Source: Archangium sp. (GTDB taxonomy: Bacteria; Myxococcota; Myxococcia; Myxococcales; Myxococcaceae). Taken from it: a stretch of 64,000 bases of DNA. Below, piece by piece: positions 30,001 to 36,000 of the stretch. A program made the position numbers. The stretch is taken from the NCBI GenBank assembly GCA_031367385.1, contig JANLPS010000005.1, positions 1-64,000 of the forward strand, written 5' to 3'. Every line of letters begins with the position of its first letter. The first letter of the stretch is position 1.

Positions 30001-33000
30001 TCGGGGGTGGCCGGTCGGGTCGAGCAAACCCCCACTCGCGACGGGCGAGGCGCCGCACGCCCCCGAGCAGCTGGGCGAGGCCGCGGGCGGGCGAGTCGAC
30101 CAACCAGATTCGAATGAAATACGGCGCCACCCGGCCCTCGGCGAAGTCGGCTGCGGCCAGATGGTCAGCTGAGAACAGCCGCTCGTGCACCAGGTGGCGG
30201 AGGTGCTGATGACCTGCGGTGCGACGGGTCTGGTCTGAGAGCGGGCCGTCGAAGGCGAGCTGCAGCACATCGAGCGCGGCCGCGTACGGCACGGTGAAGC
30301 CGACCTGCTTTGCGAGCTCTGCGACGCGGTTCCACTGCGGCGCTGACTTGGCGGCGAAGCGCTGCAAATCGACCAGCCATGACGCGCGCAAGAACGCGTG
30401 ATTCGCGGCGTGAACCGCGAGGTAGAGAAATTCATCTTCAGCACTGAGGTAGCGCACGGCGCGTCGATCGAGCTGCGCCGGCCAGGCCCGCGACTGCACC
30501 GCGTGGTCGTCGTAGGTTGCCATGCCGAACCCCGCGAAGAGCCGAAAGTGCACCTCAACCAAGCCGGCGGGGCCTGAGAACGCCTGGTGGTGATGCTCTT
30601 CAAGCACGTCACCGAGTGAGGCGTCGGGGCGGTAGGTGAGGCCAATCGACCCCAGCGCGGCGTGCACCAGTGGCAGGTCGCTGGGCAGCACCAGAATGTC
30701 GACGTCGGTGCTCGGCCGAACCAGCGGTGAATCGTAGAGCCGGGTGGCCAGCCCGTAGCCTTTGAGCACGATCGGCGTCACGCCTCGCGCCGCGAGCACG
30801 TCGAGCACGCTGAGCAGCAACCGCTTGTTCTTCGCGCCTTGCGACACCGTGGCCCGCGCGTCATCGGTCAGCTGCTGCTGGCACGGCGTCGGGAGCGTGA
30901 CCTTCGCCCGCGCCAACGCGTCAGCCACATACGCACTCAACCCATGGCGCGCGCACTGATGAACCAGCGTTGGCGCGTCGAGCTGCAAGGCGGGCAGCTC
31001 GGCTTCGCGGTGCGGTATTCGAGCGAGCACCTCGAACAACGGCGCCATCGTTTTTAGACCGACGAGGTCGACGCGACCGTGCTTGGCACCGCGGTGGCCG
31101 CCACCGGCATCACCGAGGGCAGCTTCGAACCGACGCGTCGCAAGTTGCTCTCGATTTCGTCGACCACCAGCTGCAGCATGATCTCCATCTGCGGAGGCAC
31201 GTCGCCGTACTCGCTGCGCCAGTGAAAGACGAACGCGTGCTCGGGGCCGACCTTGAGCGACATCGCGCAGGCGTCGCGCAAATCCATATCGTTGTAGTCG
31301 TCACCGGCCCAGGTCTTCACCGGCTCGCTCTGCCGCCCAAGCTTCTTGACGAGCTCGACCGAGTCGAGCTTCGCCTCGCGCGCCAGCCAGCGAAACACAT
31401 CGAGCACTTCTTCTTCGGAGTTCGCGCGCACCAGCTGCGCCGGCACATGCATGATCACCTTGCGCAGCCACTCGACGTGCCGGCTGTGAATGTGCTGACG
31501 CTGCCGCGCCGCCAGGGCCAAGTACTCGAAGTACCCGATGAAGCGAATCAGGCCGAACAACACCGCGCTCACGCCGAGCACCGCGCCGCCGACGTACCAG
31601 CTGCGGCCGAAGGCGATGCCAATGGCGCCGACGCAGAGGGCGACGGTGACGCCGTAGATGATCAGCACCGCGCGGCGATGGGTGATGCCCATGTCGAGCA
31701 AGCGGTGGTGAATGTGCCCACGGTCAGGCGAGAAGAGGGGCCGGTGCTCGAGAAACCGTCGCACCATCGCCAGCAGGGTGTCGATGATCGGCACGCCCAG
31801 CGCGACGATGGGTACGGCGATCGAGACCGCGGCCGAGGCCTTCTGCAGCGGGCCGGCGATGCTGCAGACCGCGAGGGTGAAGCCCAAGAAATAGCTGCCC
31901 GAGTCGCCCATGAAGATGCGCGCCGGGTTGAAGTTGTAGAAGAGAAAGCCGAGCACCGCGCCCGCCAGCAGCGCCATGACGACCGCGACGAAGGTGGTGC
32001 CCATCAGGTAGGCGACGACGAAGTTGGTGACTCCGGCGAAGAAGACCACGCCGGCGGCGAGGCCATCGAGCCCGTCGATCAGGTTCACCGCGTTGATGAT
32101 GCCCACGATCCAAAAGCAGGTGACGGGCAGTGAGAAGATGCCCATCGAGAACTGGCCGATGAGCGGCAAGTCGACCACGTCGACGCGAAAGCCGAACTTC
32201 CACGCGATGACCGCGGCGGCGATTTGCATGAACAGCTTGTAGAGGGCACGAATGCCACGAATGTCGTCGACCGCGCCGGTCAAGAACATCACCGTGCCGC
32301 CCAGCAGCAGCCCGAAGCCCTGCATCATCTCGGCGGGGTCGAGCGCGTTGAGGTAGCCCTCGGCGTAGAGGCCCGCGGTGGCGACGGTAAAGGCGAGAAA
32401 GATGCCGAGGCCTCCGAAGCGGGCGATTGAACGGCCGTGAATGTGGCGGCCACCGGGCTTCGAGACGATGCCGAAATTGAAGGAGATGACGCGCGCGAAG
32501 GGCGTGAACAGAGCACTCGCCAACGTTGCTGCGACGAAGGTGACGAGATAGTTCTGCATCAGTGGCCTGTCAGTGACTCGAGGGCGCTGCGGCGTTCACG
32601 GGATGCGACGCGTCGGTCTACCTACGATCGTCTGCAAGTCGAAGCAAACGTGCGAATGGCCCCATCGCGCCTTTTTGATCACACTCGAATCGGGGCCTGC
32701 ATGACGCCGATGCCAGAGGGCGCCGGCGGGGCGAGAACTCGAAAGACGAGCAAATTCATGCAGTTCATCGGGGCTCGCGTCTTGCTCAGGGGTCGCGCCG
32801 CAGAACCACCCTCTGGAAGGAAGAAGCCCATGAATTCGATGTCGAAGTGTCGTTCGTGTGACGGCCTGGTGCCCGCACGTCAGGTGATGTGCCCGCATTG
32901 CGATGCGCCGGTGCCGGTGAAGCGGAGGTCGAAGTTCATCGCGGCGCTCTCGGTGGCCTCGGCCGGCGTCGCCTCGATGACCTTGATGGCGTGTTACGGC

Positions 33001-36000
33001 ATCCCCGCGGCGCCGTGCGATTACGCGGCCGATGGAGGCACGCAGCACAACGGCATGACCTGCCAGGGCGTGTGCGTCGACCCCGCCTCGACCGCTGCCG
33101 CGCACTGCTACGACTATCAACCAGCTGACGCGGGCACCGGCGACGCCGGCACCGATGCTGGCACGCAGACCGACGCTGGCGCGCGCGACGGAGGCTGACC
33201 TCCATGCTTCGGCGACAAGACCTGAGCCAGACGTTTCACCCCGCTTACGTGGTCTGGGAGTTGACGCTTGCCTGCGATCAACCCTGCACCCACTGTGGTT
33301 CTCGCGCGGGGTCGCGACGCCCTGGTGAGCTGTCGACCGCCGACGCGCTGAAGGTCGTCACCCAGCTCGCCGCCCTGCGTACCAGAGAAGTGGTGCTCAT
33401 CGGCGGCGAGGCGTATCTGCACGAGGGCTTTCTGGAGATCATCGCCGCGCTGAAGGCCGCTGGCATTCGGCCCTGCGTGACCACCGGCGGGCGGGGCATC
33501 ACCCGGTCGCTGGCGTTCGCGATGGCTGGCGCTGGGCTCTACGCGTGCTCGGTGAGCATCGATGGGGTCGAGGTGACGCATGACTTGATGCGCGCCGCTC
33601 CCGGGAGCTTTCGCAGCGCGACCGGGGCGCTGCGGTTCTTGAAAGAAGCGGGCATTCGCGTCGCCGCGAACACCAATGTGAACCGGTTGAACATGGGTGA
33701 CCTCGAGGCGGTGGCGGCGCAGCTGGTGCCGCTGGGCATTTTTGCGTGGCAGGTGCAGATCACCGCTCCGTTGGGGCGTGCGGCTGACCGGCCGGCGATG
33801 ATTCTGCAGCCGTGGGACCTGCTCGAGCTGATGCCTCGCGTGACCGCGCTCAAGAAGTCGCTCTGGGCCGAGCACAAGGTGGCGCTGATGGCTGGCAACA
33901 ACCTGGGGTACTTCAGCCCAGACGAGGCGGTGCTTCGGAGCGCTCCTGGCCTGGGGGCAGAGGATCATTGGCAGGGCTGCATGGCGGGCAAGTTCGTGAT
34001 GGGCATCGAGGCCGATGGTGGGGTGAAGGGGTGCCCTTCACTGCAGGCGAATTACATCGGTGGTTCGCTCAAGACGCAGTCGCTCGAGGAGATCTGGTCA
34101 GCCGAAGAGTCACCGATTGCCTTCACCCGGCGGCGCACCGTCGATGACTTGTGGGGGTTCTGCAAGACGTGCCCGTTCGCCTCGACGTGCCTGGGCGGGT
34201 GCAGCTTCACGGCGCACGCGGTGGTCGGGCGGCCGGGCAACAACCCGTTCTGCTACTACCGGGCGAGCACGCTGAAGAAGCAGGGGCTGCGGGAGCGGTT
34301 GGTGTTGCGCGAGGCAGCTCCTGGGCAGCCGTTCGACAATGGGCGGTTCGAGATTTCGCAGGAGGCCTTCGGGGCGCCTGATCAGAAGCCTCCGACACCG
34401 CGGGAGTTGGTGAAGAAGCTGAAGCCAGTGGCGGCCGTCTAATCGCCACCGCCGCAGTTCAGCGTGATGACGATGACGTCGTCGGTGTCGACTTTGAGCG
34501 CGAAGTTGACCTGGGTGGCGCGGTCGGCCCGCACCGTGACGTGGTGCGAAATCGCCCGCCTAAAGCCCTCTTTTTCGACCATCACCCAATACTCGCCGGG
34601 CTCGAGCTGCATGGTGAATTGGCCATTGCGATTGGTGATCAAGACGTCTTCACCGCCTCCTCCCTCTGGGGTGATGGTCACCACCGCGTCGACGATCAGC
34701 TCGCCTGATTCGGCGCTGATCAACGTGCCGAAGAGCTCGCCTCTGTCGGGAGCGATGGACAGCAGCAGGGCTGCGAGGAGCAGGAGCTTCATGGTGAATC
34801 GAACGCTCGAGCTCGCGCGTCATACTGCGCGTGCCACGTTCAGAAATCTGAACCATCGCAGTGAGGGGCGCTCGAGGCGCTTCAGAATTCTGAGTGGGCC
34901 GGCGTGGTGAACTCGCTGCTTTCACTGGAGATTCGCCTGGCATGAGGCCTGCTCAGGGGCGCGGCATGTCATTCACTTCACTGAAATTCTTCCCGATTGT
35001 TGGCGCGATGGTCGCGATGGCCCTCACCGGGTGTGGCGTCGAGAGCAGCAGCGTTCACCCGACCAGCCACCAGGGCCTCAACAAGTTCGGAGTCGCCTGC
35101 CCCGCCATCGCCATCGTCTGCGCACCTGGGCAAGAGGTCGCCGATGTCGATGGCGACGGGTGCGCGCTCGAGTGCCGTGACCTCGCATTCGATGGTGGCG
35201 CCGCGTGTAAAGAATTTCTCGGCGATTGCACTGCCGGCACCCACCTCGAAGACGTCGACGGTGACGGCTGCGCGTACGAGTGCGTGGCCGATGATGGCGG
35301 CGTGGCCTGCCCGGCGATCGCGGTGGAGTGTGCGAACCGTGCGACGCCGATTGACGCCGACGGTGATGGGTGTGCGCTCGAGTGCCCCGGCGATGACGAC
35401 GGTGGCGTGGCGTGCCCGGCCATCGCGGTCGAGTGCGCTGACCGTGCGACGCCGATCGACGCGAACGGTGATGGGTGTGCGCTCGAATGCCCGGGCGACT
35501 TTGACGGTGGTGTGGCGTGCCCGGCCATCGCGGTCGAATGCGCTGACCGCGCGACTCCGATTGACGCGAACGGCGATGGGTGTGCGCTCGAGTGCCCGGG
35601 CGACTTTGACGGTGGTGTGGCGTGCCCTCCCATTGCGGTCGAGTGCGCTGACCGCGCGACGCCGATTGACGCAAACGGCGACGGGTGTGCGCTCGAGTGC
35701 CCAGGAGACTTTGACGGTGGCGTCGCGTGCATCGCCATCGCGGTCGAGTGCGCTGACCGCTCCGAGCCGCTTGACTTGGACGGCGATGGCTGTGCGCTCG
35801 AGTGCCCGGTTCGTCGCTGAATCGGGGGCCTCGTTCAGGCTGAGCCGAGATCAGCTCCTTTTCACGACTTGAGTGACGCGGCCATCGATGCGATTCGACG
35901 CGCGCCCACCGTCGGGCAAGTCGAAGAGGCGAATGCCGCCGTCGTCGGTGACCGTGCCTCCGTAGGAGCTGAGCGCGGCCTTGACCCGGAGCGCAGAGTC

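What a model noticed while it worked through the whole genome (the two positions that open the first line are those of the whole stretch)
32830..34442. Splicease whose XYG target site is the lipobox cysteine of a lipoprotein
A PlpX-type radical SAM tyramine splicease follows a 122-aa protein with a zinc-ribbon leader whose XYG motif is the lipobox itself (LMA-C-Y-G). We think Tyr excision turns the lipid-anchor Cys into an alpha-keto-beta-amino acid, giving a membrane-tethered ketoamide lipoprotein. A backbone edit at the lipidation residue would be a new lipoprotein modification.
Evidence so far: g01294 best matches TIGR04103 (E 2e-120) and TIGR03913 (E 4e-117), below their cuts. g01293 reads ...SMTLMACYGIP... 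and is the only such lipobox-CYG in the six-frame genome. Orthologs are in 10 of 151 phylum genomes; 6 of the 9 other loci have an adjacent CxxC-leader protein with L(M/A)ACYG. The splicing chemistry at XYG is in PMC11626197 (passages, call 104). No lipoprotein or CYG mention was found in PMC11414181 or PMC11626197, and no splicease mention in PMC13056109.
(Added by a program. Inside this text positions count along the whole contig: contig position 1 is position 1 of the stretch shown here. "Call 12" and the like, gene names such as g00115 and contig names such as C1 are that model's own, and its searches are not shown. The text may have been shortened before it was handed on; [...] marks where a part breaks off. 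The agent that wrote the report below was given it as the finding of a first reader that could run no searches.)

Follow-up and report, generated by a model that had tools for sequence, protein, structure and literature searches.

The report
Splicease aimed at lipoprotein anchor cysteine
A radical SAM enzyme related to those that cut tyrosine out of protein backbones sits beside a small, likely lipid-anchored exported protein whose predicted cut site begins at the very cysteine that would carry the lipid, a two-gene pairing repeated across many myxobacteria and, in the papers I could read, never tested.

Summary
Observation confirmed. ORF 32830-33198 (122 aa) has a CxxC-x10-CPHC ribbon, a basic stretch, a hydrophobic helix and TLMA-C55-Y-G. 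It is followed 5 nt later by a 412-aa radical SAM/SPASM enzyme that forms its own clade beside TIGR04103 (PlpX family) and TIGR03913, below both cut-offs. The pair is a two-gene cassette: 71 of 80 GTDB loci carry ribbon+ACYG, and all 49 of 301 phylum genomes with a full orthologue also hold a ribbon precursor. Natural variants separate the two signals: the Cys stays after the helix while XYG (X = L, V, I, A) moves 3-7 or more residues downstream. Cysteines after the CYG Cys are even-numbered in 63 of 65 informative cases. So export/lipidation and Tyr-directed chemistry look separately selected, and coincide in the common, apparently ancestral CYG form. The same ribbon occurs free or enzyme-fused in sister systems, so it likely docks the enzyme. 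Tyramine excision, lipidation, and both on one residue are inferred, not shown. Scott 2022 (splicease types I-V) was unreadable and may list this type. The scan noted the same system at least 8 times on other genomes.

The parts
32830..33198 (+). Precursor gene (P0001, 122 aa): ribbon leader, signal helix, lipobox-CYG, acidic Cys-paired mature part
   Evidence: family alignment; no Pfam/NCBIfam hit over cut-off
32848..32901 (+). CxxC-x10-CPHC zinc-ribbon-type leader (C7-C24); likely enzyme-docking module
   Evidence: 4 invariant Cys; AF2 pLDDT about 90; same spacing free or enzyme-fused in sister systems; weak match to TIGR03913 positions 428-455, E 0.011
32935..32991 (+). Uncharged hydrophobic helix after KRRSK (n- and h-region of a likely lipoprotein signal)
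   Evidence: helix 35-55 in AF2 model; uncharged run 12-28 residues and net basic linker in 47 of 48 representatives
32983..33000 (+). L-M-A-C55-Y56-G57: lipobox overlapping the predicted XYG splice site
33001..33195 (+). Variable mature region with four further Cys (two likely disulfides) and acidic DAG/DGG tail
   Evidence: parity and charge across family
33190..33194 (+). GGAGG ribosome-binding-type sequence inside the end of the precursor gene, 9 nt before the enzyme's ATG
   Evidence: sequence
33204..34442 (+). Radical SAM/SPASM enzyme (P0002, 412 aa), splicease-type; CxxxCxxC at C24-C31 and seven invariant SPASM Cys (259, 277, 320, 323, 329, 333, 350)
   Evidence: trees; AF2 pLDDT 86.5, nearest solved folds SkfB, PqqE, SuiB

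Best explanation
The two genes likely form a binary spliceotide-type system in which a cytoplasmic radical SAM enzyme would excise tyramine from Tyr56 of a zinc-ribbon-led pre-lipoprotein, which would then be exported and lipidated at Cys55, giving a predicted membrane-anchored protein with an alpha-keto-beta-amide at its anchor residue. Shown: gene pair, motifs, conservation, phylogenetic placement. Inferred order: (1) the ribbon plus helix docks on and activates the enzyme, by analogy to PlpY and the RhaA leader helix, and holds the signal helix in the cytoplasm; (2) splicing must come before export, since the lipobox Cys ends up on the periplasmic face and the Fe-S enzyme has no signal peptide; (3) Sec export, Lgt, LspA and Lnt replace the dedicated protease and transporter, which the cassette lacks; (4) disulfides form in the variable mature part. 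The likely use of the ketoamide is as an electrophile against serine or cysteine hydrolases at the membrane surface; no target is identified.
For: Enzyme: 402/391 bits to TIGR04103/TIGR03913, the same distance as true members of the two families have to each other (414.5 and 437.8 bits). It groups with them at SH 98 and 97, apart from MftC, PqqE, TIGR04053 and TIGR04133. Most sister enzymes examined have XYG-bearing neighbours. Substrate: 71 of 80 GTDB loci ribbon+ACYG; with a ribbon-only profile on 80 metagenome loci, 58 CYG, 4 YG within 14 residues of the Cys, 3 distal YG, 2 broken or cut among 67 hits. X varies in separated forms, so the chemistry does not need Cys. Context YG-hydrophobic-P is shared with the Nostoc TIGR04103 precursor. 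The one Tyr-less partner found in a locus (L071 = L127) has the most altered enzyme: 8 of 110 near-invariant columns, against at most 4 in 79 metagenome enzymes. Lipoprotein: PROSITE-like pattern (recalled) in 48 of 48 representatives; Cys after the CYG Cys even 63, odd 2, none 4 of 69 and even 52, odd 0, none 2 of 54; 15 of 15 separated forms even; Lgt x2, LspA x2, Lnt present. No third gene recurs in more than 7 of 80 loci. Chemistry and helix activation: PMC11414181, PMC11626197, PMC9811515. Lipobox topology: PMC8048626.
Against: No biochemical data. The clade is a sister of the known families, not nested in them; branching among four subclades is unresolved, and both equivalog cut-offs are missed. 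I could not compare with PlpX, PcpX or RhaX themselves. Not every XYG is spliced (a DYG of RcsA was not), and no CYG substrate appears in what I read. M at -2 departs from the standard lipobox of PMC8048626 (12 of 587 in this genome); the Cys lies at 48-68 rather than in the first 35 or so residues; 7 of 15 separated forms fail the lipobox pattern. Parity shows only that the Cys is unpaired. Ribbon likeness is moderate: median 22.2 bits against 7.6 background, but generic ribbons reach 17-22 and P0001 itself scores 17.4. Loci are related, so counts overstate independence; the Tyr-less case is one event.
Confidence: 0.55

Rival explanations
The product is then an uncleaved membrane-anchored protein, a released protein, or a reactive enone, and splicing acts as a switch on lipidation.
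For: Beta-thio ketones and free alpha-amino ketones are labile (general chemistry, my inference); the spliced residue enolises (PMC10533398). LspA clamps the bond next to the modified Cys. Repeated separation of Cys and YG inside the clade (2 changes on the trees, 1 forced by starred branches; also second gene copies in L054 and L141) could relieve such a conflict.
Against: L-x-A-C is kept almost without exception, and CYG is the dominant and apparently ancestral state, which argues that the overlap works.
Confidence: 0.22
2. The enzyme acts at the Tyr but does other chemistry, such as a Cys-Tyr or thioether cross-link or a different Tyr fragmentation.
For: Own long-branched clade; SPASM enzymes nearest in the PDB form C-S or C-C bonds; a Cys next to the Tyr is unusual.
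Against: X is L, V, I, A or P in precursors of enzymes nested in the same clade; 69 columns are shared across the splicease-type rows, 22 of them not seen in the three outgroups.
Confidence: 0.12
3. The protein is spliced but was never a lipoprotein: the helix is only an enzyme-activating leader or a plain membrane anchor, and LMAC resembles a lipobox because M-A-x-Y-G is the enzyme's recognition motif.
For: Separated forms read MALYG or MAAYG, in register with MACYG; free ribbons are also followed by a helix; long N-terminal extension before the signal.
Against: A Cys is kept right after the helix even when YG lies 5-50 residues away (L150/L151/L155); even Cys parity and acidic PF11617-type tails point to export.
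Confidence: 0.08
4. The small gene is not the enzyme's substrate; the pair is kept together for another reason.
For: In 4 genomes the precursor was found away from the enzyme, on another contig (G198; genomes of L015, L053, L066).
Against: 49 of 49 co-occurrence, adjacency in either orientation, invariant YG, shared ribbon module.
Confidence: 0.03

Closest known systems
Type I spliceotide systems PlpX/PlpY/PlpA and PcpXYA (PlpX is IPR026482 per PMC11002830; its equivalence to TIGR04103 is recalled)
   Same: Radical SAM/SPASM enzyme of the same larger clade; 45% identity to a Nostoc TIGR04103 member; adjacent precursor with XYG followed by hydrophobic residue and Pro.
   Different: 402 bits against cut 725; no Nif11 leader, no double-Gly site, no Y gene; precursor has a ribbon, an export signal and X = Cys.
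Binary spliceotide systems (type II RhaXA, RcsXA, RasXA; types III-V named in the supplement of PMC11414181, defined in Scott et al. 2022, not read)
   Same: Two components, no Y protein, leader with a helix that may activate the enzyme.
   Different: No lipoprotein, ribbon leader or CYG substrate in the passages read. Whether one of types III-V covers this clade could not be checked; the alignments in that supplement are images.
TIGR03913 GDL-motif maturase with DUF1843 peptides
   Same: 391 bits; carries a CxxC-x10-CPHC ribbon plus helix at the enzyme's C-terminus (L082, L084, L090).
   Different: Here the ribbon is on the precursor's N-terminus; no DUF1843; below the cut-off of 592.
TIGR04133/TIGR04134 radical SAM/lipoprotein system of Bacteroidota
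   Same: Radical SAM/SPASM gene next to a lipoprotein; both members seen have EYG about 10 residues after the lipobox Cys.
   Different: Enzyme only 133 bits from P0002 and outside the splicease-type group; ordinary short signal peptide; no ribbon; YG does not overlap the lipobox; no chemistry found in print.
Canonical bacterial lipoproteins (Lgt/LspA/Lnt pathway, PMC8048626)
   Same: Basic n-region, hydrophobic h-region, L-x-A-C.
   Different: 30-residue folded extension before the signal; M at -2; invariant Y-G at +2/+3.

Membership tests
Tyramine splicease / spliceotide (works-like and membership) | Radical SAM CxxxCxxC plus SPASM domain | tested here: met
   PF04055 and PF13186 over cut-off; invariant Cys
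Tyramine splicease / spliceotide (works-like and membership) | Groups with PlpX-family enzymes | tested here: met
   SH 98 and 97 group with TIGR04103 and TIGR03913 members; sister clade, inner order unresolved
Tyramine splicease / spliceotide (works-like and membership) | Adjacent precursor with conserved XYG | tested here: met
Tyramine splicease / spliceotide (works-like and membership) | Loss of C8H9NO (135.07 Da) at XYG giving a ketoamide | not testable with these tools
   needs co-expression and MS
TIGR04103 / type I | Score over curated cut-off 725 | tested here: not met
   402 bits
TIGR04103 / type I | Nif11-type leader and separate Y protein | tested here: not met
   no such Pfam hit; no recurring third gene
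TIGR03913 / GDL type | Score over 592, DUF1843 peptides, C-terminal ribbon on the enzyme | tested here: not met
   391.5 bits, match ends at model position 389 of 477; no C-terminal ribbon in orthologues
Types III-V of Scott et al. 2022 | Clade and precursor identity as defined in that paper | not testable with these tools
   paper not held
TIGR04133/TIGR04134 | Scores over cut-offs 425 and 39.8 | tested here: not met
   P0002 133 bits; P0001 no hit at E 0.1
Bacterial lipoprotein | Basic n-region and hydrophobic h-region before the Cys | tested here: met
   net basic in 47 of 48, mean hydropathy 1.47, uncharged run 12-28
Bacterial lipoprotein | Lipobox [LV][ASTVI][GAS]C | tested here: inconclusive
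   P0001 LMAC has M at -2; S or A at -2 in 18 of 73 relatives; looser PROSITE-like pattern (recalled) 48 of 48
Bacterial lipoprotein | Signal peptide at the N-terminus, Cys within about the first 35 residues (range recalled) | tested here: not met
   Cys at 48-68 because of the ribbon
Bacterial lipoprotein | Cys free for lipidation; pathway present | tested here: met
   parity tests; Lgt, LspA, Lnt
Bacterial lipoprotein | S-diacylglyceryl Cys and LspA cleavage | not testable with these tools
   needs labelling, globomycin, MS

The most novel reading that the evidence does not exclude
Myxobacteria make a new form of lipoprotein in which the lipid-bearing first residue is not an alpha-amino acid but a backbone-edited alpha-keto-beta-cysteine, installed before export by a splicease that is recruited through a zinc-ribbon cap on the signal peptide, with Sec, Lgt and LspA serving as the RiPP exporter and leader protease.
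Probability: 0.45. Interest if true: 0.85.

Novelty: new variant of a known kind. Interest (0 to 1): 0.68.

Why it matters
The reviews read here say native spliceotide end products remain elusive (PMC9811515). A lipid-anchored substrate in cultured genera (Archangium, Corallococcus, Pyxidicoccus, Sorangium, Polyangium, Plesiocystis by record title) offers a product that can be pulled from membranes. If both edits fall on Cys55 it is a new lipoprotein anchor chemistry and shows that Sec, Lgt, LspA and Lnt can handle a beta-amino acid. The ribbon, found on precursor, on enzyme or as a free gene, would be a new portable enzyme-recruiting module beside the Y helix, useful for engineering. Natural variants (overlapping, separated, multi-site, Tyr-less) give ready controls.

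Tried and rejected
The profile search of protein representatives was also unavailable, so the range outside the collections scanned is open. No RNA holder listed. No splicease in the PDB by sequence or fold. ESM Atlas: only unnamed Myxococcota clusters at 0.87-0.89, under the bar. Tat export rejected: RR in 11 and a Tat-like motif in 1 of 73. A conserved transporter or peptidase rejected: the large neighbour clusters were other frames over the enzyme gene. A 132-aa-longer start for P0001 rejected: relatives begin just before the ribbon. My first CYG counts selected on CYG and are circular for those residues; repeated with ribbon-only profiles and a profile ending before the lipobox (21 family hits, the 11 newly printed all ACYG, 2 unrelated ribbon proteins). 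No precursor match in plasmids. Literature searches without a hit for this system; listings without a relevant title.
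Full report
Observation. The window holds a 122-aa ORF at 32830-33198 and, 5 nt later, a 412-aa ORF at 33204-34442. A GGAGG inside the end of the first gene precedes the second start. P0001 reads: CxxC-x10-CPHC (C7-C24), a basic KRRSK, an uncharged run of 19 residues, L-M-A-C55-Y56-G57, then an acidic tail with four more Cys. AlphaFold2 models the ribbon at pLDDT about 90 and a helix at 35-55. P0002 is a radical SAM/SPASM protein. The lipobox-CYG is unique in the six-frame genome.

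The enzyme. P0002 scores 402 and 391.5 bits to TIGR04103 and TIGR03913 and 142 to the next family. True members of those two families score 414.5 and 437.8 bits against each other's model, so P0002 is a third branch at the same distance. I built trees from 88 rows (FastTree; one chosen row failed extraction) and 48 rows (IQ-TREE quick), picked by me from the loci held. Both give one clade for P0002 and its orthologues (SH 98, 99) inside a group (98, 97) with the Nostoc TIGR04103 member, GDL-type enzymes and further myxobacterial paralogues, apart from MftC, TIGR04053, PqqE (only) and TIGR04133. The order inside the group is unresolved and long branches are present. PMC11002830 places PlpX in IPR026482 (passage); that this equals TIGR04103 is recalled. 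PlpX, PcpX and RhaX themselves were not available for comparison.

The pair. Of the best 80 of 193 GTDB loci, 71 have a ribbon+ACYG neighbour (73 genes), in tandem or divergent. Of the other nine: three have the Cys and YG apart, one lacks the Tyr, one has lost the motif, three have an ACYG precursor elsewhere in the genome, and one, cut by a contig end, shows none. In 301 phylum genomes, 49 hold a full orthologue (467 bits or more; the next full-length match is 404) and all 49 have a precursor match; of 50 genomes with a strong N-terminal precursor match, 48 have a full enzyme, one a partial one, one none (counted by hand). On the best 80 of 423 metagenome loci a ribbon-only profile gave 67 hits in 64 loci: 58 CYG, 4 near YG, 3 distal YG, 2 cut or frameshifted. 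Of the 16 loci without a hit I inspected 10 and found ACYG in 5. No third gene recurs in more than 7 of 80 loci.

Two signals, separately kept. Fifteen precursors, often at second loci, keep a Cys right after the helix and place Tyr at +5 to +9 with X = L, V, I or A; 8 of 15 fit the lipobox pattern. Their enzymes nest inside the CYG clade (2 changes, 1 forced), so CYG looks ancestral. Three metagenome loci have lipobox plus distal AYG, PYG or LYG. A separate enzyme clade (L150, L151, L155) serves ribbon-lipobox proteins with 3-4 XYG repeats. After the CYG Cys the number of Cys is even in 63, odd in 2, zero in 4 of 69 complete genes (4 truncated dropped; 42/2/4 of 48 at under 50% identity) and 52/0/2 of 54 in metagenomes. 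That fits a disulfide-bonded exported domain with one free Cys. Lgt, LspA and Lnt are present. The single Tyr-less partner in a locus has an enzyme with 8 of 110 near-invariant columns changed, including G32 and S33 beside the cluster motif; 79 metagenome enzymes have 0-2, one has 4. This is one event.

The ribbon. A CxxC-x10-CxxC ribbon plus helix ends the GDL-type enzymes and stands as a free gene just after the enzyme in nine myxobacterial loci, one in this genome (C444). A profile from 10 such ribbons scores precursor ribbons at median 22.2 bits against 7.6 for 150 background motifs, many from non-coding frames; generic ribbons reach 17-22. PMC11414181 shows that an activating helix can sit on the Y protein, on the leader or on the enzyme's C-terminus. 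The three placements of the ribbon mirror this, which suggests a docking role. It is untested.

Mechanism. [quoted passage not shown] The side chain and amine of Cys55 would survive, so Lgt, LspA and Lnt could in principle still act. The lipobox Cys lies on the periplasmic face after export (PMC8048626), so splicing has to come first. I put splicease chemistry at about 0.85, lipoprotein status at about 0.8, and a stable product with both on Cys55 at about 0.5. The main rival is that splicing blocks or undoes the anchor. Ketoamide spliceotides inhibit serine and cysteine proteases, unspliced ones do not (PMC11626197), so a surface-held electrophile is the likely role; no target was found.

Known or new. 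Read: PMC11414181 main text parts 1-2 of 4, passages, supplement part 2 of 8 and a term search of it; passages of PMC11626197, PMC9811515, PMC10849128, PMC11002830, PMC10533398, PMC8048626, PMC13647313, PMC12710340. Not seen: Scott et al. 2022, Morinaka 2018, the supplement of PMC11626197. Searches pairing splicease terms with lipoprotein, zinc ribbon or myxobacteria found nothing relevant. The 2022 survey covered 189 genera and 27 pairs and cultured myxobacteria carry this cassette, so it may well appear there; that is the largest doubt on novelty. TIGR04133/04134 is a catalogued radical SAM + lipoprotein pair with EYG in both members seen. Earlier notes of this scan describe the same system in other genomes; I read them after and do not count them as evidence.

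Verdict. Real, widespread, a new variant of a known kind. It works like a binary spliceotide system but is not a member of TIGR04103, TIGR03913 or TIGR04133 by cut-off. Interest 0.68.

Noticed in passing
G000:C444 (L091) 159-2210, minus strand: Second splicease-type locus in this genome: precursor with two PMYGV sites, enzyme (392 bits to P0002), then a free ribbon+helix ORF in the position of a Y gene. Same layout in L142, L143, L145, L147, L148.
   Followed up: partly
L150, L151, L155: Separate enzyme clade with long ribbon-lipobox precursors carrying 3-4 XYG-hydrophobic-PP repeats and no further Cys.
   Followed up: partly
L152, L153, L154, L156, L159, L160, L161: Myxobacterial enzymes grouping with TIGR04103, beside precursors with up to five RYG or MYG repeats, or a double-Gly leader before KYG/IYG.
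   Followed up: partly
L127 (= L071): Tyr-less partner (LSACSG) with a diverged enzyme (HCNARA for HCGSRA); P0014 also reads LMACSG. Degeneration or new chemistry.
   Followed up: partly
L086:3523-4008 and L242:1459-2301: Both TIGR04134 lipoproteins seen have CEYG[ST]P about 10 residues after the lipobox Cys, next to TIGR04133 enzymes: a possible second route to Tyr-edited lipoproteins, in gut Bacteroidota.
   Followed up: partly
L069, L053: Cassette in records titled Leptospiraceae and Ca. Sericytochromatia, outside Myxococcota; transfer or misbinning not tested.
   Followed up: no
L034, L213, L132: Precursor genes with the motif deleted or split across frames; assembly error or decay.
   Followed up: no
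window 34969-35820 (+): Lipoprotein-like ORF (LTGC after a hydrophobic run) made of about six near-identical Cys/Asp-rich repeats; no Pfam or NCBIfam hit over cut-off.
   Followed up: no
window 31054-32559 (-): WecA/MraY-type glycosyltransferase, divergent from the cassette; beside it only in the close relative L213.
   Followed up: partly
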